Source of the DNA: an uncultured virus (IMG/VR IMGVR_UViG_3300010938_000019)
Taxonomy: Duplodnaviria; Heunggongvirae; Uroviricota; Caudoviricetes
IMG/VR virus record: IMGVR_UViG_3300010938_000019
Direction: 5' to 3' (one strand)
Length of the DNA: 20,000 bases
The notes below the pieces were generated by a model, which had not been told where the DNA came from, did no database searches, and was given only the letters and a program-made list of their open reading frames with translations. Made by a program: the position numbers and the translations under genes. Shown here one piece after another: positions 1,883 through 18,875 of this stretch (positions are counted from its first letter, which is position 1; each line of letters begins with the position of its first letter).

Positions 1883-1939
1883 AAACAACCCATTTAGTGA
1901 AGCCTGGGTGTTGGCTTTTGAAGGATCTAAATTCGCCAT
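1883..1939 (-). CDS. Major capsid protein, exon 1 (MANLDPSKANTQASLNGLF)
   Basis: ATG at 1939 preceded by AAGGGGA; 19 codons, then an in-frame TAG that is the first triplet of the intron. Confidence 0.88.
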
Positions 1940-2103
1940 ATAATGGTCCCTTTTAAAAATTAGTTTTTAAGCCTAAATAGTTAATAATACTAAGTTTTCT
2001 TACAGGGTATTTATGAATCCGTCAGGGTATCATAAAGCCGTAAAAGTAATACTACACCGTGTATTATCTAGTAGAGAGAAAGGCTTATTATTCTCTCTAC
2101 TAT

Positions 2104-2115
2104 GTAGTTGTTAAA
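2104..2115 (-). promoter_or_regulatory. Putative late promoter motif TTTAACAACTAC upstream of the capsid gene
   Basis: Identical 12-mer at 2104, 6581 and 11165, and an 11-mer at 14999; all intergenic and on the same strand. Confidence 0.7.
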
Positions 2116-2128
2116 ATTCAATAACTTA

Positions 2129-3097: not shown

Positions 3098-3129
3098 ACA
3101 TTCTCCTTGAAAATTTGTATATTTCTAAG

Positions 3130-3474
3130 TTATTCCGTCCGGTTATCGGATGGGAATTTATTGTTTACGTGTTTCTTTTGATTGTAGCCTTTTTCACAAA
3201 GACCAAATGTCCTATTACGACTCTCGTCGTTAAATCGCACACCAAGGCTTTCTAAATCTCTCTTTGCTGCACGTTTAAGTACATTCAGATTGTTTATACC
3301 TTTCTCTTTTTTTATAATGTTTAGTTTATTATGTTCGTTTCTAATTCTATAAGAAAAATTAACTACATTTATAAACACTTTATACCTAGCTCCAGTACTA
3401 GAGGATACGAATATCTTTATCGACTCATATTCCCCTTCTCTGTCTGTAGGTGCGTATCTAATTCTTGCTGACAT
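3130..3474 (-). CDS. Hypothetical basic protein (114 aa)
   Basis: Starts 2 nt after the portal stop, co-oriented; no recognised motif. Confidence 0.7.
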   Translation of the reverse strand: MSARIRYAPTDREGEYESIKIFVSSSTGARYKVFINVVNFSYRIRNEHNKLNIIKKEKGINNLNVLKRAAKRDLESLGVRFNDESRNRTFGLCEKGYNQKKHVNNKFPSDNRTE

Positions 3475-3475
3475 C

Positions 3476-6400
3476 TTAGCCGCCTAATTGTCTAGCCATT
3501 GCCTCTTGAGCTGTTTGAGGAACATCTTCAAATGGAGCCGGAGGAGTAGAAGGTTCAGGAACTGGAGGCAACTGATCCTGTATAGCTACTGACTGAGCTT
3601 GAGGATTATTCATAATATCTTGTGTATTTTGAGGAGCCTGCGCTTGAGTTGGAGGAAGTGGTTGCTGTTGTATCACTCCAAGTAGTCCTGGGTCTACAGT
3701 CTTAAGCATATCAATATGTTCTTGAATGTGCTTTAAAGTTCTTTGTAACAACTCAGGGTCTTTACGTAGAATTGGATCAGCAATTACACCTTTATGTTGA
3801 CGAATATGACTAGCATGATCGTCAGTAATAACGGCAATTACTTCATCGCCTTTAAGGAGTGCTTCATTCTCAGCTTTTATTGTATCTAGCTCATTTACTT
3901 CATCTTCCATGAAATAATCTAAGCTACCAGTATTAAGTACCATTAAGTACTTTTCTGGAGATTTAATTAATCCCATCTGCATTAGGTTTTCTGCAATCTG
4001 TGCTCTACCTGCAGTCGTATTATGGGTTACTGTAAAATCTTTTAATAAGAAATGAGGATCTTCTTTTAAACAAAATCCATAGTAGATTTCTTTATTAACT
4101 TTAGTTAGTTTAATTCCATAATTTAACCAATTTTTTTGTTTTTTACACTCTTTAGATTGTTTTCTTGGAAGTTTTGTAGGAATTCTCCATGTATCTCCTC
4201 CAATTGAAACAATGTTATATTCGTTTTCTTGTTTACTTTTTTCGGTCTGTCTTTTTAATTTTTTCCTAGATACTCTAAATCCTAAACTTCCTGCAATAAA
4301 GCATATATCGTCAGTAACTTTATTACATTTTTGAGTAAAAACAAACGTTTGGTCAACCAAGGTTCCGTCTATATCTAAAAACCCTGCTAGTATTTGAAGC
4401 CTTGTTAATTCATCGTTATACTTATAGTCAGCAGGAATGTGCTTATTTTTAATCAAATTGTACTGATTAAAATAATTCAGTACTTTGTTTCGAAGAACAC
4501 ATCCATGACTTTTTTGACTTGTTATTGTAAAAGTACTTGCTCTTCCTGAAGTATTAGATTTTCTTCTTATAAGAGCTAACCCATTATGATTAGCGTATTC
4601 TCTCCAATAATTTTCTATTTCTTTATCCATGGTGGTAATGCTAGGTTCACATCTATTACCATCTCCTAACCATGATCCTAATATGTAGGGGTCTAGAGTT
4701 ACGAACTTGTGATCAAAATTTATAGGTACTTTAAAACCCATTAAAATTCTTTGATGTCTTTCAGGAAGTTTTAAGTAATCTTTTACAGAAATGTCTATAA
4801 TTTGACCTTTTTTAACTCCATATCGAGAATCGGAAGAACAATATTTTAAAGTCATTATATGATTTTCGTTACATTTGTAAATAAAGTTTCCATTTCTATC
4901 ATGCACTTCATACATTTGTTGAAATCCTGTTCCAGCAACAGTAACGGTCTTGGGTTTAGAATCCCATCCCATTACTAAATTACCTTCGTATATATCTTCG
5001 ACTTTTTTAAATGTTCCGTCGTACATCATTACTTCTGTACCTTCCGCAAGACACGACATCAAAGCGTTACCTACGTCTACAACAACTCTAGATATGGAAC
5101 TAATATCATCACTCTTAAACTTTTCCATCTTAGTAGTTTGGCTTACTCCAGCAATAGCGATAATCCTAGGTACCTTAGCAAAGTCTTGTAATAGCTTAAC
5201 TAATCCTGTTCCAACGTCTTCTAATAACTGAATATACGATTGTTGTAAACCAGAGATGAATTGTAGAGCTTGAGATTGTACTAGAGCTAAAGCGTTTCCT
5301 GATCTTAAGGAAGCTTCTGGATTACCTCTTGCTACAGAGTTTACACCAGAAATAGTTTCCATTGTAGATTCTACTTTTTGTAAGAAATTAAATATTTCTC
5401 CTGGAGTAGCAGTAAGGTTTAATGGAGTTGGAGCACCTACTTGATTGTTATATTCAATAAAGTTAAGTCCACCTTGTAACTGAGTTACCTTTACGTCATT
5501 TCCTCTAGGATTCAAAATACTTTGAACACCAAACGCATTTTGGTTTGTCATAATAGTCGAGTAAAGACTATTAACAGTATCTTGTAAAGGAAGAAGATCA
5601 AACATCATAGAATATCCATAAGGAGTACCTAGGATGTCTGAAGGAGCAATGCGATAAATGGGAAGTTGACCATACGGCATGATAGTATCAATCAATACGC
5701 AGTCATCATGCAAGAATAGGCAGTAGTTACCCTCAGGCATTGATTCAGTTCTTTTATGGAAAAACTCATAAACCGCAACGTCTACCGTTTCATCATAAGG
5801 AGTTAACGTAGTTTTATAGCTACCTTGTTCTTTGTCCTTTGTAGGGACAGAAAGGATCTTATCTGCGAACTCAGGATACTTCTTAGCAAGATCAAACTTA
5901 TTTAAGAATGTTCTACAAAGAACCCAGTCATGTAGTTCTGGGTTTTCTTTAGTACTGTCGAATACTACGTCTAAAGGTGATAGTACGTTGAATTCAACAT
6001 CTCCTTCATGGATAGGAAACGCTTCTAGCTTATTTCCAGCTTCATCCAAAGGATTGCCTTCTTCATCATATCCGACAATAGAAGATGGATCTGGTTCGAC
6101 ATAGTCGTGAATTTCACCTCGTGTGGAATTCCACTCCATCTTCACATAGCCGGAACCTAGAACGATAGCGTATTCAACCGCTTTTTTTAAATATTTTTCT
6201 AGGCGTTTTTCTCTCATGTAGTAATCGAGAAGGTTATTTGCTAATTTAGTTTGAATTAAAGACTTACGATCTGTATTTACTGCACGAGCTTGGAATGCTG
6301 GTCTTGTTGATGTAACCATAACAAGCATGTGCTGAGCAATGTTCCTGTAATGGTTTACCGCTAGGTTTACTAGCTCACCTTGTTCTCCACCATATCCTAA

Positions 6401-6562
6401 AGAATGATCACTATTGTAATAATTACCATGATAGGCATTATATGAACGAGTCAATTTTTCTAAATAATTACTGCTATTTACACTTTTAAACCAAGCACCT
6501 GACTTGGACATTAAGTGTGCTACTTTTCTTTGGGATTCATCGGCTGCAAAATATATATCCAT
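3476..6562 (-). CDS. Portal protein with intein (1028-aa precursor, about 683 aa spliced)
   Basis: Directly follows terL; size, METISGVNSVARG motif and Q/P-rich tail fit P22/N4-like portals; GAGG RBS. Confidence 0.88.
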   Translation of the reverse strand: MDIYFAADESQRKVAHLMSKSGAWFKSVNSSNYLEKLTRSYNAYHGNYYNSDHSLGYGGEQGELVNLAVNHYRNIAQHMLVMVTSTRPAFQARAVNTDRKSLIQTKLANNLLDYYMREKRLEKYLKKAVEYAIVLGSGYVKMEWNSTRGEIHDYVEPDPSSIVGYDEEGNPLDEAGNKLEAFPIHEGDVEFNVLSPLDVVFDSTKENPELHDWVLCRTFLNKFDLAKKYPEFADKILSVPTKDKEQGSYKTTLTPYDETVDVAVYEFFHKRTESMPEGNYCLFLHDDCVLIDTIMPYGQLPIYRIAPSDILGTPYGYSMMFDLLPLQDTVNSLYSTIMTNQNAFGVQSILNPRGNDVKVTQLQGGLNFIEYNNQVGAPTPLNLTATPGEIFNFLQKVESTMETISGVNSVARGNPEASLRSGNALALVQSQALQFISGLQQSYIQLLEDVGTGLVKLLQDFAKVPRIIAIAGVSQTTKMEKFKSDDISSISRVVVDVGNALMSCLAEGTEVMMYDGTFKKVEDIYEGNLVMGWDSKPKTVTVAGTGFQQMYEVHDRNGNFIYKCNENHIMTLKYCSSDSRYGVKKGQIIDISVKDYLKLPERHQRILMGFKVPINFDHKFVTLDPYILGSWLGDGNRCEPSITTMDKEIENYWREYANHNGLALIRRKSNTSGRASTFTITSQKSHGCVLRNKVLNYFNQYNLIKNKHIPADYKYNDELTRLQILAGFLDIDGTLVDQTFVFTQKCNKVTDDICFIAGSLGFRVSRKKLKRQTEKSKQENEYNIVSIGGDTWRIPTKLPRKQSKECKKQKNWLNYGIKLTKVNKEIYYGFCLKEDPHFLLKDFTVTHNTTAGRAQIAENLMQMGLIKSPEKYLMVLNTGSLDYFMEDEVNELDTIKAENEALLKGDEVIAVITDDHASHIRQHKGVIADPILRKDPELLQRTLKHIQEHIDMLKTVDPGLLGVIQQQPLPPTQAQAPQNTQDIMNNPQAQSVAIQDQLPPVPEPSTPPAPFEDVPQTAQEAMARQLGG
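4019..5053 (-). mobile_element. Intein with LAGLIDADG endonuclease in portal (345 aa)
   Basis: N-junction ALMS|CLAEGTEVMMYDG; block B CNENHIM; LAGLIDADG blocks YILGSWLGDG and LAGFLDIDG; C-junction HFLLKDFTVTHN|T. Confidence 0.95.
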
Positions 6563-6580
6563 GTATTACCTCGTGTATTA

Positions 6581-6592
6581 GTAGTTGTTAAA
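6581..6592 (-). promoter_or_regulatory. Putative late promoter motif TTTAACAACTAC upstream of portal
   Basis: Motif sits in the 40-nt gap between terL and portal, just ahead of the RBS. Confidence 0.7.
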
Positions 6593-6602
6593 TTAGAATG
6601 TA

Positions 6603-9143
6603 TTATTTTTTAATGTTTAAGACAGTCTTAACCCATTCCAAGGCACTATTTGAGTCCTCGTCTCTAGTAGGACTTCTAAATACATTCCGTCCTTTTAACT
6701 TTCCATATCCTTCTGGAAAAGGGTTTCTAGATTCCATTACATTTCGCACCAAATAAGAACAAGCTGGAAGCGCATCGCAGTGACCTCCACGAACTTCTCC
6801 ACTAGGTGAATCTTTTAAGTGCTTAAAATCGCTACGAGTTTTATTCCACTGGGCATTCTCTAAATGATATATAAGAGTCTTGCATCTTTCGTGTATTTCT
6901 ATCTTACCATTACTAATCCACATACGCAGATTGTTAATGGCAGCATCTCTATTATCTTTTTTTGTAGGAATAAACTGTATTTCATGTAATCGACTTAGAT
7001 CGTTAATAAGCTTTAGATCATTATCCATGATCCTTAAGTAAGGTTGGTTAACTTCTCCAGTTTGTTCATCAAGGAATCTTATAGACTCTATTTCTTTAAT
7101 ACGCTTTGCTAAATGTTGAGTGGTCATTTCAGGACCATTCATTACAAGCTCGTCAATAATCTTTAACTTAGCTTCTCTAAAGTCATAAACTGCAAACAAT
7201 GCCACAGTTAAGTCTTTAAACCCTACGTCCATTGAAACATAAGCATCATAGAATGAAGGCTTTTCTACCATAGGCTTTACAATATCAAACTTGTGTTCAT
7301 AAAATTCTGGAACTACAGTGGATTCAGAAGACTTTGGTATTTCTACAAGATACTCGCATTTGAATTTAGGATTTTCTACTCCACCAGGATAACGAGCAAT
7401 AACTTTCTGTATCTTTTCTGGAGTAAGCATTGGAGAATCATAGATAGTATACTTTACTATGTTACCATCTGCTTCAGCAGGTTGAACAAATGACTCATGG
7501 AACTCATGGTTAGGGTCTTTAAAGTTAGGAGTAGATGCTAATACTAGTTTACCGTTAGTAGTATCTGTAGTAGGAAGCATAATACTATTAACGACGTAGT
7601 CTAAATCATCGCAAAATCCTGCTTCATCTATGATACAAAGATTCGCGTACCCTCCGCGAAGATTTTCGGCATTACCAGAATCAGTTCCTGCTATTTGTAT
7701 CTCTGATCCATTCTTGAATCTAAAGACTTTTTCTTGAGCAAGCCACTCTGGACGTAATTCTTCTGGACAATCTGCAAGTATTTCTCTCATGATGGGACGA
7801 ATGATAGTACGAACCATTGTTTGCTGAGGACACGCATATTTTACAATGGCATTTGGTATCTTTACACAAGTTTCTGTAGCAAGAGTACAAAGAACGTACG
7901 AATTATGAGTGACTAATCCATTTCCTGTTAGAAATAAGTGATCAGGTGTATCTATTCCTATGTCGTAAGTTTTAGCTTTGTATTTTTTTCCTAATTTAAT
8001 TCCAACACTGTCAGGTCTAGTATTGTTTTCTAGACAATTTTCATATTCTTCTTTCCATTTTTTTCTAGGAACCACTAAATATTCATTTAATTCTTTTAAT
8101 GCTCTTTTTGCATAGATATTACAAGAAATTCTTACTGTATAACAAGGACCATTTACGTATTTTTCTCTATTATCTGCCGAATAGTTACACTCATATTGCC
8201 ATAAAAACTTGTAAAGATACTTTACTACTTTTATCATACTTAACGACTGACTATGAAACTCAATAAATAATCTATTTTTTTTAAATTGAATACTTCCGTC
8301 AGTATCTATTAGTCCTGCTAATAAATTTAATAACGATTCCCTATCCCAATTTTTTATAACATCTATATCAATTACTTTTTCGTGAGCGTATCTTCCTTTG
8401 ACCCAATCATTGTAATAATTACAGTGAACCTTATTTGGATATGTCTGTCCTTTTCTTACTTTATTTTCCGAATTAGAAATGACCCAAGTATAATTATTTT
8501 CGCTTTGTCTATAAACCATTTTAGCATTTAAAACTTTAGCCACTTTGTTAGGGATGATTTCATTTTCCGATGAAATATGAATATTATTTATTCCTTGTCT
8601 AGAGCAACCATCTCCAAGCAATGCACCTATGGCGTACGCATGCGATTCATTAACTAAACCTCCTGGAGCCTGTATAAATTCTCTAACTATTTTATCTCTT
8701 ATTGTTAATTCTTTTGTCGTTTTGTATCTATATACAAACTTTTCATTTTTATAACAAGTTTTTACTAACCATCTATGATCTTCAGTAGCTCTTTCTATTA
8801 CTATATTATTATGAGTTAATTCAACTACCTCTTTTTCACCTTGAACATGAACCTGCTCAACTTTAACTATAGTTGTAGAATTAGTTTCCGTAGAATAGGC
8901 ATAGACTTTGTCACCGACTTTTATGTCTTTAATTAAAACTAATCCAGATGGTGTAAGTATCTCTGTGTCTTCATGTAGACATTTTCCTATTCTTCGGGAA
9001 CATAGCACAGTAGAAATTGGTTTATCATTATCAATGACGTACTTATGAATATCCTTTTGGATACCTTTCAGTTTCCAAGAAAGCTCACCTAGTTCCCATA
9101 GCTTTTGTTTTGCTGAATTTACGTCAATAGGTTTCTTAGACAT
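6603..9143 (-). CDS. terL: Terminase large subunit with intein (846-aa precursor, about 486 aa spliced)
   Basis: Reconstituted Walker A SRRIGK|S, Walker B LCIIDEAG, coupling motif LASTP, RNase H-like nuclease YVSMDVG...HCDAL. Confidence 0.95.
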   Translation of the reverse strand: MSKKPIDVNSAKQKLWELGELSWKLKGIQKDIHKYVIDNDKPISTVLCSRRIGKCLHEDTEILTPSGLVLIKDIKVGDKVYAYSTETNSTTIVKVEQVHVQGEKEVVELTHNNIVIERATEDHRWLVKTCYKNEKFVYRYKTTKELTIRDKIVREFIQAPGGLVNESHAYAIGALLGDGCSRQGINNIHISSENEIIPNKVAKVLNAKMVYRQSENNYTWVISNSENKVRKGQTYPNKVHCNYYNDWVKGRYAHEKVIDIDVIKNWDRESLLNLLAGLIDTDGSIQFKKNRLFIEFHSQSLSMIKVVKYLYKFLWQYECNYSADNREKYVNGPCYTVRISCNIYAKRALKELNEYLVVPRKKWKEEYENCLENNTRPDSVGIKLGKKYKAKTYDIGIDTPDHLFLTGNGLVTHNSYVLCTLATETCVKIPNAIVKYACPQQTMVRTIIRPIMREILADCPEELRPEWLAQEKVFRFKNGSEIQIAGTDSGNAENLRGGYANLCIIDEAGFCDDLDYVVNSIMLPTTDTTNGKLVLASTPNFKDPNHEFHESFVQPAEADGNIVKYTIYDSPMLTPEKIQKVIARYPGGVENPKFKCEYLVEIPKSSESTVVPEFYEHKFDIVKPMVEKPSFYDAYVSMDVGFKDLTVALFAVYDFREAKLKIIDELVMNGPEMTTQHLAKRIKEIESIRFLDEQTGEVNQPYLRIMDNDLKLINDLSRLHEIQFIPTKKDNRDAAINNLRMWISNGKIEIHERCKTLIYHLENAQWNKTRSDFKHLKDSPSGEVRGGHCDALPACSYLVRNVMESRNPFPEGYGKLKGRNVFRSPTRDEDSNSALEWVKTVLNIKK
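7902..8981 (-). mobile_element. Intein with LAGLIDADG endonuclease in the terL P-loop (360 aa)
   Basis: GK|CLHEDTEILT; block B ATEDHRW; AIGALLGDG and LAGLIDTDG; YDIGID...HLFLTGNGLVTHN|S. Confidence 0.96.
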
Positions 9144-9145
9144 TA

Positions 9146-9535
9146 CTAACTTCCCTTAGATCCTTCTACGATCTTGAAAAGTTCCGCAACATCTGCCTTC
9201 TTATTTGACTTAGATGACTTATCTACTGGACTCTGTCCTCGTATTGCACGAAGATTCTTGTATAGTATGTCCAACACCTTGGCTTCATTCTCAGTAAACA
9301 GACCTTTCTCGGAGAGTTCCTTGAGTTTACGTATTTCATTAACACAAATAAACTCTTCATCGGTAACAGTTTGTGTTAAACCCTCAATCTCTTCTTCAAG
9401 ATCGTTGTCTTTTAGTATTTGTTTTAGTTTATGGTTCTCTTCTTCTAGCTGTTGGATACGCTTCTTAAGAGCAGTTATCTCAAAAGTAGCTTCCATACCA
9501 AGAAGAGTTTTATTAGAATCGGATTTGTTGTCCAC
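9146..9535 (-). CDS. Probable terminase small subunit (129 aa)
   Basis: Small helical/coiled-coil protein immediately upstream of terL; positional inference only. Confidence 0.55.
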   Translation of the reverse strand: MDNKSDSNKTLLGMEATFEITALKKRIQQLEEENHKLKQILKDNDLEEEIEGLTQTVTDEEFICVNEIRKLKELSEKGLFTENEAKVLDILYKNLRAIRGQSPVDKSSKSNKKADVAELFKIVEGSKGS

Positions 9536-9821
9536 CGAATCCTCCTCTCGTAACAGATAGGCTTACTTTAGAGAAATCTTCTTTCACTTTAGTAAGTTCT
9601 GATCTGTCTTGGTCAATTTGTCTACGTAAAGTTTCAATTTCTTTACGAAGAGTAATGGAGGGGTCTGGTGTTTCTATTCTATCTAGGTACGCTCTGTAAG
9701 CAGAGAGAGCACAAAGACCGAGAATAACAACCGAAGTTGCTATAGTCTGACCTTGCACACTAGAATATACTAGAAATAAAAATAATAGAACGGCAGGATA
9801 CTGCCTCACGTTTTGCTTCAC
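9513..9821 (-). CDS. Membrane protein with two hydrophobic helices and a coiled coil (102 aa)
   Basis: AVLLFLFLVYSSV and IATSVVILGLCALSAY segments; AGGAGG RBS before GTG. Confidence 0.7.
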   Translation of the reverse strand: MKQNVRQYPAVLLFLFLVYSSVQGQTIATSVVILGLCALSAYRAYLDRIETPDPSITLRKEIETLRRQIDQDRSELTKVKEDFSKVSLSVTRGGFGGQQIRF

Positions 9822-9845
9822 AACTACCTCCTATGTCTTAAGTGT

Positions 9846-10004
9846 CTATCGCCCTGACTTGGGTAGATATTGCTTAAGAGTATCTGGTGATTTAGCTAAT
9901 CTTTTTCTTAATTTACCAAAAATGGACTTCTTCTTTGCAGATCCTACAAGATTTGCTACCTTATCTGAGTAGACTTTCTTTAAATTTGCATCCATGTTTG
10001 ACAT
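9846..10004 (-). CDS. Small basic protein (52 aa, not in ORF track)
   Basis: MSNMDANLKKVYSDKVANLVGSAKKKSIFGKLRKRLAKSPDTLKQYLPKSGR; starts 3 nt after the upstream stop. Confidence 0.7.
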   Translation of the reverse strand: MSNMDANLKKVYSDKVANLVGSAKKKSIFGKLRKRLAKSPDTLKQYLPKSGR

Positions 10005-10007
10005 ATG

Positions 10008-10178
10008 TTATTTCTTTTTTGAAATTCTTTCTTTTAATTTACCAAAAGCGTACTTACCTTTGTTTCCCTTAGTCATTTCTTTAGCTACGTCCTTGCTAAC
10101 TCCTGCTTTCTTTGCAAATTCAGGATTATTCTCTATAGCTTTAAAAAACTTAAAAGCGGCTTTACTCTTTACTGGCAT
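10008..10178 (-). CDS. Small basic protein (56 aa, not in ORF track)
   Basis: MPVKSKAAFKFFKAIENNPEFAKKAGVSKDVAKEMTKGNKGKYAFGKLKERISKKK; overlaps the HNH stop; resembles the MPxKS..NPEFAKK small phage proteins (from memory). Confidence 0.75.
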   Translation of the reverse strand: MPVKSKAAFKFFKAIENNPEFAKKAGVSKDVAKEMTKGNKGKYAFGKLKERISKKK

Positions 10179-10758
10179 TTCTTTTATCCATTTCTAAGTT
10201 TATTTTAATTATCTCGTAGCCCAATGATCTATTATTGTCAAATAAATGATGGTGATTTGGACATAAGGGTGAAGTATTCTTGTAACTTAAGACTCCACCT
10301 TTAGAAGCTGGAATTATATGTGCAACTTCTACAATCCTATCAAATCCGCATATACAACAATTTTTATAGTCATCACGTTTTAATAATTTATTTTTTATAG
10401 AACTATAAGATTTTCCACCGTCTGCGTATCTGCGAAACTTTATTTGGTTTAAATAACCTCCAACAGTGCCGGAAGGAATTCCCATCAATTCGGCTATTTC
10501 TCTATTAGTTTTCCCCCCAGTAGCATATTTATAACATAACTGTCTTTTAGATCTTCTTTCAGGATCTATTTTAATAAATTTTCTAGAACATTCGACAGAG
10601 CAACACTTGGCTTTTAAAACTCTGTGAGGAAATACCTTAAATTCTTTATTACAATATTTACAATTAACAGATATACGAGGTTTTTTATTATGAGGAATCA
10701 TTCCTTTTTTAAAAGAAGTAGAGTTATGTTTTGGATGTTTTTTTTCTACTTCAAACAT
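10162..10758 (-). CDS. Free-standing HNH endonuclease with NUMOD-like, Zn-finger and HTH modules
   Basis: CCICG...AHIIPASKGG...N..PLCPNHH (HNH); FKKGMIPHNK; CKYC...CSVEC; NREIAELMGIPSGTV. Likely start is ATG 10758, just after the upstream stop. Confidence 0.88.
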   Translation of the reverse strand: MFEVEKKHPKHNSTSFKKGMIPHNKKPRISVNCKYCNKEFKVFPHRVLKAKCCSVECSRKFIKIDPERRSKRQLCYKYATGGKTNREIAELMGIPSGTVGGYLNQIKFRRYADGGKSYSSIKNKLLKRDDYKNCCICGFDRIVEVAHIIPASKGGVLSYKNTSPLCPNHHHLFDNNRSLGYEIIKINLEMDKRNASKE

Positions 10759-10762
10759 ACTA

Positions 10763-11053
10763 TCAGTCTTCTCCTCTAGGTCTTGTAATTTTAGGACTAT
10801 TCTTAGACCAAAGAGCTTTACATGCCCAGTAACGAGCACTCATTTTATCCTTAGCTTGAGCACAATTGTGTCTAGCTTTAAAGTTCTTGCGAGCTTTATC
10901 TGAATAATTAGACTTCATGTTTGCATCACCAAAATGAACAAGTTTTTCTTGTCCATCTTGACAAGCCTTTACCATCTTCTTCTTTTCAGGTTTAGAAGAG
11001 GGTACGGGCTTATTGCATTTTAGTCTTTTTTTAATTTCTGACCAATCTGCCAT
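10763..11053 (-). CDS. Conserved small basic viral protein (VHFG...RKNFKARHNC...YW family)
   Basis: GAGG RBS; first gene after the late motif at 11165; motif pattern recalled from uncharacterised virus proteins. Confidence 0.75.
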   Translation of the reverse strand: MADWSEIKKRLKCNKPVPSSKPEKKKMVKACQDGQEKLVHFGDANMKSNYSDKARKNFKARHNCAQAKDKMSARYWACKALWSKNSPKITRPRGED

Positions 11054-11176: not shown

Positions 11177-11314
11177 TATACTAATGTAGGGTGATATATG
11201 GGAAAATCTCTATACTATACTAACTTTGCTATATACTTATTATCTAGTTTTTGAGTATAAAATCCCTTAAGAAAGTGTTTGTTTCGATTTAAACTCCCTC
11301 AATCCTTAGAGTTT

Positions 11315-11342: not shown

Positions 11343-11634
11343 ACCGTCTGTAATGTAGTCAATAAATAACTTGCGTCAACATGATATTATTTGGGATAAG
11401 GCTTGTGTCTATTTGTGAGATAGACCTGTCAACCTACACAGGAGATCGCCATCTCCCGAAGCATGGTGTTGCTTCTTGCCCTGAGTGTGCTAAGGGTTTC
11501 ACCTTAGTCTCTGCTCATATGGGAACCAGTTTACCTTTACGAAATCGTAACCCTCTTCTGATTAACCCAATCTACATTACAAAAGATATAGTTCGTCGGC
11601 TCTCTTTTCATGCCTATATAACTTATACCTTCAA
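11315..11634 (-). ncRNA. Candidate structured ncRNA A (about 320 nt)
   Basis: Consensus sigma70 promoter upstream; 10-bp closing stem (11349-11358 with 11572-11581) enclosing at least five hairpins; GNRA-type loops on the minus strand; terminator-like hairpin at the 3' end; no credible ORF. Confidence 0.6.
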
Positions 11635-11640
11635 TATTTG

Positions 11641-11670
11641 ATTATAAGGTAAAAATACCTTTGTTGTCAA
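11641..11670 (-). promoter_or_regulatory. Sigma70-type promoter TTGACA-N18-TATAAT
   Basis: Perfect -35 and -10 hexamers with an 18-nt spacer. Confidence 0.8.
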
Positions 11671-11737
11671 ATATTGCTATATCCTTTACTTTAATTCAAA
11701 CTCATGATACTCTAAAAATAATCACTGGGAGGTCAGG

Positions 11738-11995
11738 ATGTATTATCTCGTAGCCTATTTGATAATTTTTGGAATCATCACAACAGTCAACTACAACGTC
11801 TATCAGGGAGCTGTCCCTTTTCTTTCATGCATGGTGGCTGCCTTGTTCTTCCCCCTTCAAGTGGTAAATTACATAGTGACGTACATTTTAGGATTTTTTG
11901 GGGTATTATGGACCCTTAGAGTAGGTTTCTTAGTAAGCCCAGAACAGTTCAAAAACGCCACTTCTGACGATGACAATAGCAAAGACCCTAAATAA
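11738..11995 (+). CDS. Small membrane protein (85 aa)
   Basis: GGAGG RBS; 2-3 hydrophobic segments and a charged tail. Confidence 0.75.
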   Translation: MYYLVAYLIIFGIITTVNYNVYQGAVPFLSCMVAALFFPLQVVNYIVTYILGFFGVLWTLRVGFLVSPEQFKNATSDDDNSKDPK

Positions 11996-12025
11996 CAGGT
12001 GACAACTATCCCTTAGAAGGACCTA

Positions 12026-12346
12026 ATGGTGACACATAACATACCTTTAACTGAATTTATAGTGCAACTACTTAAAATCATTGAAGACAACTCCAAAGGA
12101 ATGTCTTATAGTGATCGCTATGCCTTAAAATCCCTAGTCCTTTCTTGTTATCAAACATATGCAATAACTGTTACAAAGGAAATCCCAATAGCCAATCCTA
12201 AGCTCCTATCCACTGAACTGCAAGACGACCTTAAATACCAACTAGGATCTCTTCTTGGCGAAGCCTTGACTGAGCAATGTGCTTCCTTTAACCTATCTAA
12301 ACATAAACTAACAACTACTGTTATAGCCTTAAAAATCAAGGCTTAG
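12026..12346 (+). CDS. Hypothetical protein (106 aa)
   Basis: AAGGA RBS; co-directional gene string. Confidence 0.7.
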   Translation: MVTHNIPLTEFIVQLLKIIEDNSKGMSYSDRYALKSLVLSCYQTYAITVTKEIPIANPKLLSTELQDDLKYQLGSLLGEALTEQCASFNLSKHKLTTTVIALKIKA

Positions 12347-12364
12347 CAAGGATTTACCTTTAGA

Positions 12365-14018: not shown

Positions 14019-14231
14019 ATGGAAAATCAATTACTTAAAGAACAACATGAAATGTGCATCAGGTACGCCAACAGTATGATGAACATGATTAAGATATATG
14101 AAAAGCAAGGTGATAGACAGGAATCAATTAAGCAATGTGCATTAGAAGGACGTAATGCCCTTTTAAAAGCTAAAGAACTTGAAGCACTACTTGACCAAGC
14201 CAATGAAATTACGCTTATTCTAGCTGCATAG
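14019..14231 (+). CDS. Hypothetical helical protein (70 aa)
   Basis: AAGGA RBS; downstream of a strong promoter. Confidence 0.75.
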   Translation: MENQLLKEQHEMCIRYANSMMNMIKIYEKQGDRQESIKQCALEGRNALLKAKELEALLDQANEITLILAA

Positions 14232-14241
14232 GAGAAGGTAT

Positions 14242-14376
14242 ATGTACGTTTTAGTGTATAGTCCTAAGGAGAGAGTTATATTAAATGGAACTTTAAAAGA
14301 ATGTATACTTCATTTGTCATGGATAAAGAGCTTATGTCCAACCAAGTACTCTCAGTATACTATCATTAAGAAATAA
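14242..14376 (+). CDS. Hypothetical protein (44 aa, not in ORF track)
   Basis: AGGAG RBS; MYVLVYSPKERVILNGTLKECILHLSWIK... Confidence 0.6.
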   Translation: MYVLVYSPKERVILNGTLKECILHLSWIKSLCPTKYSQYTIIKK

Positions 14377-14400
14377 CAAGTACTTACATTCACATGATCG

Positions 14401-14425
14401 CCCACTTTTGAGTGGGATTTTTCTA
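14401..14425 (+). terminator. Intrinsic terminator
   Basis: CCCACT-TTTG-AGTGGG followed by ATTTTTTCT. Confidence 0.7.
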
Positions 14426-14639
14426 TTTATACTCACTGCCTCTTGTCTTGAGACACTGCTTATTCACGGATAGAAATGACGCAGTGTGTAATGGAGTAAT
14501 TATACTGGAAAAGGAAAGTTGTTTGGTATATGAGACAAGTGTTTGGTAAGGAAGACAGAGAGAGTGAGGAGAAGTGAGCTTTTGAGAGGAAGTTTCTTAT
14601 TTTCACATCTACATTTTACTATGTTTTATATGTTGGTTA

Positions 14640-14997
14640 GTTACCCGTAATACATCAAGAGAGTTACTGTATATTCACTTTCGGGTATAGTATAGCTATA
14701 TAGCAGATTTTAGCTATAGTTACTAGTACTATACCTTTCACCTAATGTGCCCGAACTTTCAGTGAAGGTCTATAGTCGAGATTCCTTAATCTCTGGACGA
14801 CTTCGGTACCTTAATCTTACCTAGTCATTAGTAGGGCGTTCCGCTTGAGTCTTATCCCTTATCCTCAAGTGCTCACGTGGGGGGTAGCATAGCCGATTCT
14901 AGCTTTTCAGTCTGATCACCCGGGAATGTTACTTCCCTTCAAGATGCTTACTAAGCGCAACTAAGGTTAATCGTTTTTTAACGGTCCCTACTTAGTA
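14640..14997 (-). ncRNA. Candidate structured ncRNA B (about 350 nt) behind the late motif
   Basis: GC-richer ORF-free stretch with nested stems and a possible pseudoknot, starting directly after TTTAACAACTA (14999-15009); 3' end uncertain. Confidence 0.55.
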
Positions 14998-14998
14998 T

Positions 14999-15009
14999 TA
15001 GTTGTTAAA
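14999..15009 (-). promoter_or_regulatory. Putative late promoter motif TTTAACAACTA
   Basis: Fourth copy of the motif; no protein gene lies downstream. Confidence 0.6.
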
Positions 15010-15077
15010 TATGATAACACATGAATACACTTTAGACAATAGTGAGTCTTTAAGTGTTTGAATTGTTATGACGCATT

Positions 15078-15094
15078 GTGGCATGACATATGCA
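15078..15094 (+). promoter_or_regulatory. Sigma54-like element GTGGCATGACATATGCA
   Basis: Canonical GG/GC spacing; shares downstream TGCATAT...TGGTAAGA with the 13731 element. Confidence 0.5.
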
Positions 15095-15130
15095 TATAGA
15101 TATGGTAAGAACTTAACTAGAGGAGTTAAC

Positions 15131-15316
15131 ATGAAACATCAAGAAGAACTATTGAACGCTTACGTTATGCTTTTTAAAGAGTTCGCCGAAAAGAACAATA
15201 CTTTCATGGCGACTAACATTCTCAACAAAATTAGCGAGCATTTAGTGCTTAATTGCTACACTCTAGATCAGGCTATGGAGTTCTATAAAACTAACTTAAA
15301 TGAGTACTTGAAATGA
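15131..15316 (+). CDS. Hypothetical protein (61 aa)
   Basis: GAGGAG RBS supports ATG 15131 rather than 15068. Confidence 0.7.
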   Translation: MKHQEELLNAYVMLFKEFAEKNNTFMATNILNKISEHLVLNCYTLDQAMEFYKTNLNEYLK

Positions 15317-16483: not shown

Positions 16484-16979
16484 GGTATATACTAAAAGAC
16501 TTGAAGAAGGTAAACACTTAGTAAAAAACTATAGAGCGTCTAAGTTCTACTTAGGGAAGTACGCTTTAGAGATGATTGATCAGTTCCCCGGACTAACACT
16601 AAAGAGACTTTCCCAAGACCTTAAGTTACCTTATGGAACAATGAAACCAATAGTTGCATACTATAGGAAATCTAGAGAAACTTTTAGCGAAGATAAGCAA
16701 GAGCGGGGGTTCTTTCTTATACAAAAATTAGTTTGTGCGCATAAACTTAAAATTTCTGAACTGAATAGTTCGAATTTAGTTATGCTAGAAAAGAAGCTAG
16801 AAGATAATAACATTCCTAAAGGGTTTGCAGCTTTTGGTAAGTTTAAAAGCTATAGTAATCAGCTCATTTCCTTTTTAAGTAAGAATCCTTTGATTGTAGA
16901 TTCCGAGAAAAAGGAGATCTACGAGATATTAAGGAAGATGGAAATGGCTTTAGAAGGAAAGTTAAAGAAGATTGCCTAA
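16476..16979 (+). CDS. Hypothetical basic protein, possible HTH (167 aa)
   Basis: GAGG RBS, GTG start; TLKRLSQDLKLPYGTM is HTH-like. Confidence 0.7.
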   Translation: MNKVYTKRLEEGKHLVKNYRASKFYLGKYALEMIDQFPGLTLKRLSQDLKLPYGTMKPIVAYYRKSRETFSEDKQERGFFLIQKLVCAHKLKISELNSSNLVMLEKKLEDNNIPKGFAAFGKFKSYSNQLISFLSKNPLIVDSEKKEIYEILRKMEMALEGKLKKIA

Positions 16980-17427
16980 CAAAAGGATTCATATGGGTAA
17001 ATCCCAACAAAGAACACTAAGGCATAAAGAAGATAAGGGCGGAGAAATCAAGAGACTAAAGAACGCTATAAGAAGATTAGAAAGTGACAAAAGGAAGTTA
17101 CTATCTGAAATAAAAACACTTGAGGAAGCTTTTGGGAAGAACATTCAGTTTCTAAAAGGTAAGACCGATGGACTAACACTGAATGAACTAATAAAGGCAG
17201 CAAAGAACGAGCAGAGTCTAGAGCAAGTTAAGAATGAAAAAGAGCAGAAGTTTTCGGACATGGAAAAGAAATGGAAGTGTTTTGACTGCGAGAACGGGCT
17301 ACTAAAGATTATCAAGTATAATAATAGAGATGGTGAACATTATTTTAGATTGTGTTCTAATCATCCGAAGTGTAAGAAACGTACTAAACCTAAAAAATGG
17401 CACGATAACGTGGAAGGAATAAGATGA
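16972..17427 (+). CDS. Coiled-coil protein with C-terminal topoisomerase-type C4 Zn ribbon
   Basis: CFDC...F.LCSNHPKC resembles CPxC...FxGCSxYPxC; the start could be ATG 16993. Confidence 0.75.
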   Translation: MPNKRIHMGKSQQRTLRHKEDKGGEIKRLKNAIRRLESDKRKLLSEIKTLEEAFGKNIQFLKGKTDGLTLNELIKAAKNEQSLEQVKNEKEQKFSDMEKKWKCFDCENGLLKIIKYNNRDGEHYFRLCSNHPKCKKRTKPKKWHDNVEGIR

Positions 17428-17618
17428 AAGACATTTACGACAGAAAAGATCTTGAACTAATGGAATCAGTACTTGAAAATAAATTTCAAATACTAGAACA
17501 CATCGAGCAGTATTTGCTAAACGATACTTGGGTAGACGAGTTTAGAGTAAAAAATAATAAAGGACTAGAACAAGTCATTGTGGTTGACTTTGACGGCGAA
17601 ATAATCGCATCATTTTAA
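17424..17618 (+). CDS. Hypothetical protein (64 aa)
   Basis: ATGA overlap; AAGGA RBS. Confidence 0.7.
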   Translation: MKDIYDRKDLELMESVLENKFQILEHIEQYLLNDTWVDEFRVKNNKGLEQVIVVDFDGEIIASF

Positions 17619-17625
17619 GGGTTAT

Positions 17626-17775
17626 ATGCAAAAAATAGTATTGATTGGATGGGCATTTTTAATGGTAGGTTATGTGTTACTGTATATAGCGCAAGAACCT
17701 GAAATAGCGATATTCTTTTTTATAGTAAGTTTTGGTACATTCATTATTAAATTATTGAATTTAGGTATAGAATAA
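17626..17775 (+). CDS. Small two-TM protein (49 aa, not in ORF track)
   Basis: MQKIVLIGWAFLMVGYVLLYIAQEPEIAIFFFIVSFGTFIIKLLNLGIE fills the intergenic gap. Confidence 0.6.
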   Translation: MQKIVLIGWAFLMVGYVLLYIAQEPEIAIFFFIVSFGTFIIKLLNLGIE

Positions 17776-17783
17776 AATAGTTG

Positions 17784-17812
17784 TTTACATTGTGTTTGAA
17801 AAGTAGTATTAT
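17784..17812 (+). promoter_or_regulatory. Sigma70-type promoter TTTACA-N17-TATTAT
   Basis: One mismatch per hexamer; immediately upstream of an AAGGAG RBS. Confidence 0.55.
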
Positions 17813-17828
17813 TGTGTAAGGAGTTTAC

Positions 17829-18086
17829 ATGACGACATATTACAAAGCAAAATATACTTTCGAATGTGAAGATCTTCTTAACGACAATGATGAACACGTT
17901 CCAGAATATACAGCGTATTTTAACGGTGTAGAATACTTTAAAGAAGATGGAATCGAAGTTGAATTAGTAGAAATAGTTGATGAGAATGGACAAGCAGTAT
18001 CTACAAATAAATTTTCTAAAGAAACCGTAAGATATTTGTATGATAAAGCTTATTATTTAGACTTTAACAAAGTAGAATTGGAGTAG
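17829..18086 (+). CDS. Hypothetical acidic protein (85 aa)
   Basis: AAGGAG RBS. Confidence 0.75.
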   Translation: MTTYYKAKYTFECEDLLNDNDEHVPEYTAYFNGVEYFKEDGIEVELVEIVDENGQAVSTNKFSKETVRYLYDKAYYLDFNKVELE

Positions 18087-18088
18087 AT

Positions 18089-18217
18089 ATGTTGAAAATA
18101 TTTATGGTGTTTTGTATGATTCTTGGGGCAACTGCAATTGCTACAAGCTTAGGGGTTTACACTTACATGTTCTTTACAGAAATTGAACCAGCAATGGGGA
18201 GTAGTTATGAGGAATAA
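18089..18217 (+). CDS. Small single-TM protein (42 aa, not in ORF track)
   Basis: GGAG RBS; MLKIFMVFCMILGATAIATSLGVYTYMFF... Confidence 0.6.
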   Translation: MLKIFMVFCMILGATAIATSLGVYTYMFFTEIEPAMGSSYEE

Positions 18218-18875
18218 TACTATAATTGGATTAGTAGGAACCAAGGGATCGGGAAAGACAACGGCAGCAAGACATATCGTAGAGAAACTACGGGAATATA
18301 ATCCTAGTATCGTTTCTTTTGCTGATAAACTAAAGAGAACCTGTTCAGAAATAACTGGACAACCTTTAGAGAACTTTGAAGAACAAGATAAGAAAGAACA
18401 GGTATTTGAAAAGTCCGAGTTTCTTTATACTTCACAAATACTAAAGATACTAAAAAACTTTAATATTAATTCTGCTTGTACAGACATTCCGGAAAAGTTT
18501 TCGGGCATTATATACAATACCAATAGGCAGCTAATGCAGATTGTTGGTACTGATATGCTAAGATCTTACGACGATCTAATCCATGTAAAGACTTTAGCAG
18601 ACCATAAAGGATTATTGATTGTTCCAGACGTTAGATTCGCAAATGAGGCGGAATATATAATAGAGAACAAAGGATATCTTATCTATATTTCCAATACCGA
18701 AGCCGAGTCAAAAGTCAATGAAAATTCTCACCAATCAGAGAAAGAGGTAGTAGAAAAAACTAGACATTTGGCTAACTTTACGGTTCATAACGATGGAAAG
18801 AATTTAACAAAGTTTATTGAAAATGTTGATGACATTTTGTTTGATATAGAGTATTATATTAAAAATCATTCATAA
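18207..18875 (+). CDS. Deoxynucleoside monophosphate kinase (T4 gp1-like)
   Basis: IIGLVGTKGSGKTT P-loop, SFADKLK, RQLMQIVGTD, DVRFANE, HQSE; GGGGAG RBS before ATG 18207. Confidence 0.92.
   Translation: MRNNTIIGLVGTKGSGKTTAARHIVEKLREYNPSIVSFADKLKRTCSEITGQPLENFEEQDKKEQVFEKSEFLYTSQILKILKNFNINSACTDIPEKFSGIIYNTNRQLMQIVGTDMLRSYDDLIHVKTLADHKGLLIVPDVRFANEAEYIIENKGYLIYISNTEAESKVNENSHQSEKEVVEKTRHLANFTVHNDGKNLTKFIENVDDILFDIEYYIKNHS

What the first reader, a model, noticed from the sequence alone, without database searches (positions are those of the whole stretch)
14640..15009. Second large structured ncRNA candidate, behind the late promoter motif and antisense to the early region
Seen on the minus strand: AGTAGGG (14992-86) pairs with CCCTACT (14836-30), closing a domain with GGGAA/TTCCC, GCTTA/TAAGC and CTTGAG/CTCAAG hairpins. 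Then follow GAGATT/AATCTC, CCTTCAC/GTGAAAGG whose loop TTCGGG (14755-50) can pair with CCCGAA (14685-80) as a pseudoknot, and a GGTATAGTA/TACTATACC stem. No ORF. Inference: an RNA co-expressed with head genes, with a possible role in assembly or packaging (phi29 pRNA is the precedent, but no similarity is claimed).
Basis: partly seen in the sequence, partly recalled or inferred. Interest (0 to 1): 0.75.

Follow-up and report, generated by a model that had tools for sequence, protein, structure and literature searches.

The report
New conserved structured RNA of phages
The gene-free stretch holds a real gene for a folded, non-coding RNA of about 340 bases that many uncultured water phages share, that matches no catalogued RNA family, and whose job is still unknown.

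Summary

Single-sequence folding is not significant (z -1.4 to -2.2). Comparison decides the case. Relatives carry homologous RNAs behind the same promoter motif.

- **5' domain.** A covariance model built without the window finds window 14829-14994 (minus) at 53 bits, E 3e-10. With the window it finds 40 distinct sequences. In 27 of them 90.9% of cells pair, against 63% in shuffles, and 19 of 24 pairs change on both sides.
- **3' domain.** It covaries in 9 relatives. The window matches it only weakly, at 17 bits.
- **Known families.** Rfam 15 gives nothing.
- **Distribution.** Only phage and metagenome contigs hold it, often as two copies, one behind a sigma-70-like promoter.

This is a new, phage-specific RNA family: a four-way junction with an invariant core followed by hairpins. 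A trans-acting binding role is inferred. A packaging role like pRNA has no support. The proposed pseudoknot and two of the hairpins occur only in this phage.

The parts
14999..15010 (-). Late-promoter motif ATTTAACAACTA, directly upstream of the RNA
   Evidence: Exact 12-mer shared with the sites upstream of late genes at 11177 and 6593, and near-exact at four more late genes. The motif TTTAACAACTATA is conserved on the terminase strand in relatives.
14660..14997 (-). RNA gene, about 340 nt. The 5' end is inferred from the promoter. The 3' end is inferred from the point where close relatives' contigs diverge. No terminator is seen on this strand.
   Evidence: No ORF.
14829..14994 (-). 5' domain: four-way junction (P1, P1b, P2, P3, P4) with invariant junction strands GACCGUUAAAAAA and AGCGGAACG
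   Evidence: Model R1, built without the window, matches at 53 bits, E 3.1e-10. Covariation in 27 distinct homologues.
14986..14991 (-). P1 5' strand GUAGGG, pairing with CCCUAC at 14831-14836
   Evidence: Helix 1: 5 of 6 pairs change on both sides.
14831..14836 (-). P1 3' strand CCCUAC
14982..14984 (-). P1b 5' strand CCG, pairing with CGG at 14841-14843
   Evidence: One compensatory change in relatives: GACGG...GCCGAA in L076/L149.
14914..14972 (-). P2 arm, enlarged in this phage. Alternative closing pair: CGAUU 14973-14969 with AAUCG 14898-14894.
   Evidence: Read from the sequence. The insertion relative to all homologues is seen. It has no comparative support.
14871..14893 (-). P3 hairpin: GCUAUG / CGU(G)AGC, loop CUACCCCCCA
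   Evidence: Position matches helix 4 of the family. The pairing in the window is read from the sequence.
14844..14869 (-). P4 hairpin CUUGAG...CUCAAG. Its 3' strand runs straight into P1b.
   Evidence: Helix 5: 4 of 6 pairs change on both sides.
14799..14826 (-). P5 hairpin: GACU-GGUA...UACC-AGUC
   Evidence: Single-sequence fold. A hairpin stands at this place in L076, L080 and L087 but not in five other relatives.
14778..14793 (-). P6 hairpin GAGAUU-AAGG-AAUCUC
   Evidence: The counterpart UAGCU...AGCUA covaries in relatives (helix 1). Model R2 did not align the window's hairpin to it.
14734..14768 (-). P7: CC-UUCAC / GUGAA-(A)-GG, with a loop that starts GAAAGU
   Evidence: Aligned by R2. 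Helix 2: 6 of 6 pairs change on both sides. The bulged A and the GAAAGU/GAAACU loop recur across the family.
14684..14735 (-). P8 long hairpin GGUAUAGUA...UACUAUACC, with inner helices
   Evidence: Aligned by R2. Helix 3: 7 of 10 pairs change on both sides.
14401..14426 (+). Intrinsic terminator of the early (plus) strand, upstream of the RNA gene on that strand. It probably shields the RNA gene from early read-through.
   Evidence: Relatives have an A-run plus hairpin at the matching side of the RNA gene.
15002..15129 (.). Intergenic control piece, nearly invariant in close relatives. It holds the upstream half of the late motif, a sigma-70-like minus-strand promoter (15039-15011) and the ribosome site of the plus-strand gene that starts at 15130.
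   Evidence: 1 difference in 128 bases in run X1 while both flanks run on unlike. Promoter scan.

Best explanation
Window 14997-14660 (minus strand) is the gene of a stand-alone, structured, non-coding RNA of about 340 nt. It belongs to a phage-specific RNA family that is not in Rfam.

Shown:
- The gene lies directly behind the phage's late-gene promoter motif and has no ORF.
- Its 5' half is a four-way junction. P1 and P1b close it, P2 and P3 are variable arms, and the 3' strand of P4 runs without a gap into P1b. The junction strands are almost invariant: GACCGU(U/G)AAA..., (C)GAC..., AGCGGAA(N)G.
- Its 3' half is a series of hairpins (P5-P8). The P7 loop starts GAAAGU.
- Both halves covary in other phages.

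Inferred:
- The RNA is made late in this phage and acts in trans.
- The invariant junction core and the P4 and P7 loops form a compact fold that binds a specific partner, either a phage or host protein or a small ligand.
- Because relatives add a second copy behind a strong sigma-70-like promoter, the family seems to be needed in bulk, as a binder or sequestering RNA. An mRNA leader would not need that.
- I put about 0.9 on 'real conserved RNA gene of a new family' and about 0.35-0.4 on 'trans-acting binder of a protein or ligand'.
For: Promoter:
- Exact late motif at 15010-14999, shared with six late-gene sites in this genome and conserved in relatives on the terminase strand.

Homologues:
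- RNAs starting ...GACCGTTAAAAA lie right behind that motif in L072, L075, L076/L083 and L087. L080 has the RNA without an exact motif.
- Model R1 (six relatives, window left out) hits window 14829-14994 on the minus strand at 53 bits, E 3.1e-10, in 901 kb searched.
- R1 confirmed 36 of 83 loci from two pattern scans and 7 of 56 from a third. That makes 40 distinct 5' domains, the window included.

Covariation:
- 5' domain: 90.9% of cells paired against 63.0% shuffled. 19 of 24 pairs change on both sides. Score 0.646 against 0.161 (0 of 500 shuffles reach it); slid controls reach 0.152 at most.
- 3' domain, 9 distinct relatives: 94.6% against 75.7%, 16 of 24 pairs, score 0.506 against 0.159.
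- The window's P7 and P8 are aligned by R2 at 17.3 bits, E 0.0037, in a 401-base search with filters off.

Strand:
- G-U cells outnumber A-C cells 38 to 11 and 11 to 2.
- Promoters in relatives lie on the same strand, and hairpins with a T-run follow the RNA in L158 and, weakly, L072.

Stand-alone gene:
- No downstream ORF on the same strand.
- The early-strand terminator at 14401-14426 lies before the gene on the other strand.

Not a known family: no Rfam hit at gathering or E-value thresholds, in the window or in 18 relatives' loci.

Phage-only: 6 hits of a strict pattern in 185,579 species genomes all lie inside ORFs, and R1 gives them at best 13.5 bits, E 0.057.

The RNA is better conserved than its neighbouring genes.
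Against: - No transcript data. No RNA run holds the stretch, so the start, end and timing are inferred.
- Single-sequence folds are not significant, and the plus strand folds better.
- The window's 3' domain was missed by R2 with default filters and reaches only 17 bits with filters off. Its P6 was not aligned.
- The alignments used for counting were fitted to the models. The pattern scans fix the GACCGT and AGCGGAA columns, so their invariance is partly by construction.
- No terminator is seen on the RNA strand in the window.
- In close relatives (runs X1-X3, flanks about 84-99% identical) 14660-15001 is replaced by unlike sequence. At the promoter end that sequence reads like a ribosome site plus ATG. 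So the RNA is dispensable, moves, or diverges fast.
- Nothing found here names a partner. The binding role is inference from the conservation pattern alone.
Confidence: 0.78

Rival explanations
1. Counter-defence or host-takeover decoy. The RNA is an accessory gene whose folded core mimics a cellular RNA, for example a tRNA-like four-armed shape. It soaks up a host defence nuclease, sensor or RNA-binding regulator.
For: - It lies among small, non-conserved early-region ORFs.
- Close relatives differ in this cassette while the flanks are kept.
- Some related near-complete genomes lack it (G003). Others have two copies, one behind a consensus sigma-70 promoter, as expected for a product needed in bulk from the first minutes.
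- It has a four-armed junction with no gap between P4 and P1b, as between the T arm and acceptor arm of tRNA (the tRNA comparison is from general knowledge).
Against: - ARAGORN finds no tRNA-like gene.
- The junction strands are 7-9, 5-7, 1-2 and 0 nt long, unlike tRNA's 2, 1, 4-5 and 0 (the tRNA figures are recalled).
- The host and its defences are unknown.
- This phage's only copy is behind a late promoter, which is late for most counter-defence.
- No precedent matches by sequence.
Confidence: 0.15
2. New ribozyme or ligand-sensing RNA. The invariant junction core is a catalytic or ligand-binding pocket, as in self-cleaving ribozymes and riboswitch aptamers.
For: - Conservation is concentrated in junction strands and in one loop, while helices covary freely and arm lengths vary. 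This is the pattern of aptamers and small ribozymes.
- In several distant members an ORF on the same strand starts about 150-300 nt downstream: L181, L176, L173, L211.
Against: - In the window no ORF on the same strand follows.
- In closer relatives a terminator, a new late promoter or a convergent gene follows.
- No Rfam ribozyme or riboswitch model matches.
- No cleavage site or ligand can be named.
Confidence: 0.1
3. Cis-antisense regulator. Late transcription across this spot makes RNA complementary to an early plus-strand transcript and shuts down the early genes downstream (15130 onwards).
For: - The gene is antisense to the early gene block.
- A sigma-70-like plus-strand site can be read at about 14447-14475 (my reading).
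- The plus-strand complement also folds stably.
Against: - An early-strand terminator lies before the RNA gene (14401-14426). Relatives have an A-run plus hairpin at the matching side, so early transcripts probably stop short.
- Stretch 14430-14475, which holds the putative plus-strand promoter, is missing in close relatives.
- Antisense action does not need a covarying four-way junction.
- Second copies in relatives lie between gene blocks, not antisense to genes.
Confidence: 0.07
4. Packaging or assembly RNA in the manner of phi29 pRNA.
For: The late-type promoter is shared with the head, portal and terminase genes.
Against: - No match to any Rfam model, pRNA included.
- It has a four-way junction and a 3' hairpin domain, unlike pRNA's three-way junction with two interlocking loops (recalled).
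- The phage has a conventional large terminase with an intein, an HNH gene and direct terminal repeats.
- Relatives express a paralogue from sigma-70-like promoters.
- Related near-complete genomes lack the RNA.
Confidence: 0.03
5. Not an RNA. The inverted repeats act at the DNA level, as an origin or as protein-binding sites.
For: It is the largest ORF-free gap of the genome, and there are promoters on both strands.
Against: - Pairs are kept through G-U far more often than through A-C. DNA cruciforms would not show that asymmetry.
- There are multi-helix nested covariation and conserved unpaired junction strands.
- A promoter stands directly upstream in the window and in 9 other members. It is the same late motif.
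Confidence: 0.03

Closest known systems
phi29 pRNA (Rfam RF00044)
   Same: A phage-encoded, stand-alone, structured RNA without an ORF.
   Different: - No model match.
- About 340 nt against 174 nt.
- A four-way junction plus a hairpin domain, against a three-way junction with interlocking loops (recalled).
- pRNA belongs to small protein-primed phages with a nuclease-less packaging ATPase. This phage has a conventional terminase and terminal repeats.
Orphan large phage-associated RNAs such as GOLLD and ROOL (in Rfam)
   Same: Elaborate, covarying RNAs of unknown function. They are often carried by phages and prophages and are expressed as independent genes.
   Different: - No Rfam match.
- This RNA is much smaller.
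- Those families also occur in bacterial genomes. This one was seen only on viral and metagenome contigs.
Four-way-junction riboswitch aptamers (for example SAM-I and the Mn2+ yybP-ykoY class)
   Same: A four-helix junction with covarying arms and near-invariant junction nucleotides. It also has a 1x4 internal loop between P1 and P1b that resembles a kink-turn. This is my reading and was not tested.
   Different: No sequence or model similarity. No regulated ORF lies downstream in the window. A stand-alone gene with its own promoter and, in relatives, a terminator.
Stable RNAs C and D of phage T4 (recalled; not examined here)
   Same: Small, stable, phage-encoded RNAs of unknown function, transcribed as independent products.
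   Different: No comparison was made. They lie in T4's tRNA cluster, and this phage has no tRNA genes in the window.

Membership tests
phi29-type pRNA | Match to the Rfam pRNA covariance model | tested here: not met
   cmscan of the whole window at gathering scores gave 0 hits. On 14200-15300 at E up to 10 it gave only an unrelated 17-bit hit.
phi29-type pRNA | Three-way junction with two loops that pair between molecules | tested here: not met
   The conserved build is a four-way junction plus P5-P8. I saw no conserved pair of complementary loops when reading the sequences, but I made no formal test.
phi29-type pRNA | Host phage packages protein-primed DNA with a small ATPase that lacks a nuclease domain | tested here: not met
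   An 82-kb genome with direct terminal repeats. The large terminase family matches at 6603-9143.
Any Rfam 15 family | Score at or above the gathering threshold | tested here: not met
   Window. Eight relatives' loci. E-value mode on the window region and on 10 further loci gave nothing relevant.
Riboswitch or cis-acting leader | Lies in the 5' untranslated region of a regulated gene on the same strand | tested here: not met
   In the window no minus-strand ORF of 40 aa or more starts within the RNA, and the next one (14606-14460, GTG start) has no ribosome site. In L158 a hairpin with a T-run ends the RNA, and L154 and L153 have a hairpin there without a T-run. Some distant members do have a downstream ORF.
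Riboswitch or cis-acting leader | Conserved ligand pocket: invariant junction nucleotides with covarying helices | tested here: inconclusive
   The pattern is present. Part of the invariance is forced by the search patterns, and no ligand is known.
tRNA or tRNA-like element | Cloverleaf recognised by a tRNA finder, with junction strands of 2, 1, 4-5 and 0 nt | tested here: not met
   ARAGORN finds 0 genes. The junction strands here are about 7-9, 5-7, 1-2 and 0 nt.
Cis-antisense RNA (lambda OOP or P22 sar type) | Overlapped by a transcript from the opposite strand | tested here: inconclusive
   The gene is antisense to the early block, but an early-strand terminator lies before it. No RNA data.
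The new family defined here (5' four-way junction, model R1) | Significant match to a model built without the window | tested here: met
   53 bits, E 3.1e-10, full-length match to 14829-14994 on the minus strand.
The new family defined here (3' domain, model R2) | Significant match to a model built without the window | tested here: inconclusive
   Missed with default filters. With filters off on 401 bases: 17.3 bits, E 0.0037. P7 and P8 were aligned, P6 was not.

The most novel reading that the evidence does not exclude
The RNA is an RNA-only weapon in the phage-host arms race: a compact folded decoy, or possibly a catalyst. Phages of this group deploy it in an early version (sigma-70 promoter) and a late version (late promoter) to capture or disable a host RNA-directed defence or regulator. 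That would explain why it sits in a swap-prone accessory slot and comes and goes between near-identical phages.
Probability: 0.15. Interest if true: 0.85.

Novelty: categorically new. Interest (0 to 1): 0.68.

Why it matters
Few phage-encoded structured RNAs are known beyond tRNAs, introns, pRNA and a handful of orphan families. This one has firm comparative support, with 40 distinct sequences and most helices covarying. It is confined to viral and metagenome contigs and is better conserved than the protein genes around it. In several genomes it comes as two copies under different promoter types. That makes it a well-defined target for experiments: an abundant RNA with a nearly invariant junction core. 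It points to a function in infection that protein-centred annotation misses, such as binding, sensing, catalysis or decoying. A ready covariance model would also allow annotation of an otherwise blank gap in many uncultured aquatic phage genomes.

Tried and rejected
- **Plus-strand RNA.** The plus strand folds better (z -3.58 against -1.43). I rejected it because the promoters, the G-U excess and the homologues all lie on the late strand.
- **DNA similarity searches.**
  - No match for the region in 50,697 phage records.
  - No match for two relatives' RNAs in the same collection.
  - BLASTN and nhmmer of the gap against 144 loci found nothing.
  - BLASTN against five IMG/VR relatives found nothing. 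The homologues were found only through the promoter motif and a 12-mer.
- **Terminase as a single query.** In viral contigs it found no close relative.
- **Sequencing runs.** No RNA holder is listed. Three DNA runs hold small shares. Laying them showed the flanks but no cover of 14660-15001.
- **Cellular genomes.** A strict pattern gave 6 chance hits inside ORFs.
- **A second copy in this genome.** None was found with R1.
- **Downstream motif ATGTATTA as a promoter.** It is not enriched in this genome.
There is no fixed-register counterpart in relatives, and a nested alternative exists in the window.
- **RNA polymerase gene for the late motif.** None was recognised.
- **Metagenome records behind my loci.** They could not be searched whole.
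- **Earlier notes of this scan.** None covers this place or sequence. A word search listed other orphan phage RNAs, which were not comparable here.
- **Literature.** Two full-text searches and passages of two 2026 preprints gave no description of this RNA. A third search failed on a term format.

Full report
**Setting.** The window is bases 55109-75108 of an 81,833-bp viral record with direct terminal repeats.
- Minus-strand structural genes fill 1-11053: major head, portal-like, large terminase at 6603-9143, and an HNH gene.
- Small plus-strand genes without known families follow from 11381.
- The stretch around the finding is the largest ORF-free gap of the whole genome: 836 nt at a 60-aa cut-off.
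- No cultured phage is close. The terminase has at most about 30% identity to any of 50,697 records, and the gap has no DNA match there.

The 'late promoter motif' is real.
- The 12-mer ATTTAACAACTA lies on the minus strand, exact or with one mismatch, upstream of late genes at 11177, 6593, 2116, -293, -16510 and -22142.
- An exact copy lies at 15010-14999, inside the early block and pointing into the finding.
- In relatives' loci TTTAACAACTATA recurs in front of late genes, always on the terminase strand.

Thermodynamics alone does not carry the claim.
- The minus strand of 14640-15009 gives z -1.43.
- The plus strand gives z -3.58.
- The two domains alone give -1.2 and -2.2.

**Homologues.** DNA similarity searches found nothing. 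The terminase has hundreds of metagenomic relatives. With an alignment of them I fetched 59 viral and 80 metagenome loci. Scanning these for the late motif showed several copies followed by ...GACCGTTAAAAA, the same words that follow the motif in the window. Reading these sequences side by side showed the following.
- *P1* changes on both sides: GTAGGG/CCCTAC in the window, TGAAG/CTTCA, TTAAG/CTTAA, TTGAGG/CCTCAA, TTGAAG/CTTCAA.
- *P1b*: one compensatory change, GACGG...GCCGAA in place of GACCG...GCGGAA.
- *P4* covaries: CTTGAG, CTTGG, CTTAAG, CAAGGT, CTTGTC, each with its complement.
- *3' half*: P7 keeps a bulged A, and P8 is a long covarying stem.

**Models and counts, 5' domain.**
- Model R1 (128 positions, 24 pairs) was built from six relatives, without the window.
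- In 901 kb it found the window's 14829-14994 on the minus strand, full length, at 53 bits, E 3.1e-10. It also found further members, among them a second, shorter copy in L072.
- No second copy exists in this genome.
- Three pattern scans of IMG/VR gave 10, 73 and 56 loci. R1 confirmed 36 of the first 83 and 7 of the last 56 at E up to 0.01.
- In all there are 40 distinct 5' domains, the window and one borderline sequence (L070, E 0.024) included.
- On the 27 distinct sequences, 90.9% of 626 cells pair against 63.0% in shuffles. 19 of 24 pairs change on both sides. The covariation score is 0.646 against 0.161 (0 of 500 shuffles reach it), and partners slid by 1-3 columns reach at most 0.152.

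**Models and counts, 3' domain.**
- Model R2 was built from eight relatives, without the window.
- It gave 9 distinct sequences with 94.6% paired against 75.7%, 16 of 24 pairs changed on both sides, and a score of 0.506 against 0.159.

**Caveats on the counts.**
- These alignments are fitted to the models.
- The scans fix the GACCGT and AGCGGAA words, so their invariance is partly by construction.
- The window's 3' half is divergent. R2 missed it with default filters. With filters off on 401 bases it aligned P7 and P8 at 17.3 bits, E 0.0037, and did not align P6.

**Strand and gene limits.**
- G-U cells outnumber A-C cells 38 to 11 in the 5' domain and 11 to 2 in the 3' domain.
- Together with the promoters, this puts the RNA on the late strand, which is minus in the window.
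- The 5' end should lie a few bases after the motif, near 14997.
- The 3' end is open, because no terminator is seen on this strand in the window.
- In relatives a hairpin follows the RNA. In L158 it has T-runs on both sides, and L072 has a weak T-run. In L075, L153 and L154 an A-run precedes it, so it would stop the opposite, early strand.
- In the window the early-strand terminator at 14401-14426 plays that part.

**Close relatives.**
- Contigs of three public DNA runs cover 14112-14659 and 15002 onwards at about 84-99% identity.
- They run on with unlike sequence exactly at 14659|14660 and 15001|15002.
- The 128 bases 15002-15129 differ at 1 position in X1, although both of its sides are replaced.
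- So 14660-15001 behaves as a cassette of about 340 nt.
- In X1 and X2 the replacing sequence next to the promoter reads like a ribosome site and ATG. The far end in X1 loosely resembles the end of P8. I could not see the rest.

**Anatomy in the window.**
- P1: 14991-14986 with 14836-14831.
- A single A opposite AACG.
- P1b: 14984-14982 with 14843-14841.
- J1/2: UUAAAAAA.
- P2: an arm enlarged only in this phage. A CGAUU/AAUCG closing is an alternative.
- P3: 14893-14871.
- P4: 14869-14844, whose 3' strand continues into P1b.
- P5: 14826-14799.
- P6: 14793-14778.
- P7: 14768-14734.
- P8: 14735-14684.
- The GG at 14735-14734 can pair with the CC of either P7 or P8.
The minimum-energy fold instead nests UUCACU/AGUGAA with UUCGG/CCGAA.

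**What it is not.**
- Rfam 15 gives no hit at gathering scores in the window or in eight relatives' loci.
- Nothing relevant appears at E-value thresholds.
- ARAGORN finds no tRNA or tmRNA.
- A strict pattern in one genome each of 185,579 prokaryote species gave six hits. All lie inside ORFs of unrelated organisms, and R1 scores them at 13.5 bits at most.
- On this evidence the family is confined to viral and metagenome contigs.

**Distribution and expression signals.**
- Of 40 distinct members, 9 have the exact late motif AACAACTA within 50 nt upstream by script, the window among them, and L075 has it too. In L222 the motif sits in the spacer of a sigma-70-like promoter.
- 15 have a sigma-70-like promoter by a loose rule. 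Clear cases are TTGACA-17-TATAAT in L170, TTGACA-17-TATACT in L216 and TTGACA-17-TATATT in L071/L072b.
- Of ten IMG/VR records searched whole, eight had been picked because they held a hit. All eight matched, and five of them hold two copies. The two not picked for a hit (G004, G005) had none, nor did G003, a 97%-complete terminase relative.
- A small-terminase-like gene and one early gene keep their order relative to the RNA in other loci, but the RNA's immediate neighbours are not conserved.

**Mechanism.**
- *Shown:* a conserved, covarying RNA gene with its own promoter.
- *Inferred:* it acts as a free RNA. The nearly invariant junction strands, the conserved P4 and P7 loops, the freely varying arms and the strong promoters fit an RNA that folds compactly and binds something specific in quantity.
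- *Open:* whether the partner is a phage protein, a host factor (decoy or sponge) or a small ligand, and whether the core is catalytic.
- *Weakened:* the antisense reading, by the terminators that shield the gene and by copies that are not antisense to anything.
- *Unsupported:* the packaging reading.

**Novelty.**
- No Rfam family matches.
- Two literature searches and passages of two 2026 preprints on new non-coding elements did not describe it.
- Earlier notes of this scan hold nothing at this place or sequence. A word search listed other orphan phage RNAs that I could not compare.
- I rate it a new family of unknown function.

Noticed in passing
window 6603-9143 (-): The large terminase (846 aa) carries an intein-like insert. 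Homologues of about 485 aa match only about 51% of it at 72-75% identity, and the full-length ones carry LAGLIDADG and intein Pfam domains.
   Followed up: partly
window 3476-6562 (-): The 1028-aa ORF matches portal families over residues 66-494 and terminase/helicase-type ATPase families over about 490-870. It may be a fusion or another inserted element.
   Followed up: no
window 13776, 13986, 14476, 15068 (+): The motif ATGACGCAGTG (0-1 mismatch) recurs four times on the plus strand within 1.3 kb of the early region and nowhere else that closely in the genome. It may be an operator or a leader element.
   Followed up: no
window 15002-15129: This 128-nt intergenic piece is almost invariant in close relatives (1 difference in X1), although the sequence on both of its sides is replaced. 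It holds a sigma-70-like minus-strand promoter (15039-15011) and the ribosome site of the plus-strand gene that seems to start at ATG 15130.
   Followed up: partly
window 14430-14475: Close relatives in runs X1 and X3 lack these 46 bases and have 7 other letters instead. The stretch holds a sigma-70-like plus-strand site and one arm of an inverted repeat, CACTGC...GCAGTG.
   Followed up: no
window 14540-14600 (-): A long pyrimidine-rich (CU) tract lies on the RNA strand just downstream of the RNA gene and is purine-rich on the plus strand. It is kept at about 84% identity in close relatives. Its role is unknown, and it might be a 3' tail of the RNA.
   Followed up: no
L072:7967-8067, L071:1633-1735, L228, L198 and others: Relatives have a second, shorter copy of the 5' domain (GGACCGTGAAATAG...). 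It lies between the early and late gene blocks, behind near-consensus sigma-70 promoters and just upstream of the first late promoter.
   Followed up: partly
G000 contig 11525-12358, 15615-16361, 9497-10012 (loci L145): Several homing-endonuclease and HNH genes lie among the replication genes. The family-B DNA polymerase hit (16620-18320) covers only part of the profile, so the polymerase may be split by mobile elements.
   Followed up: no
whole genome and relatives' loci: The late motif TTTAACAACTATA(G) is highly conserved across the phage group and ends like T7-type promoters, but no RNA polymerase or sigma gene was recognised in this genome.
   Followed up: partly
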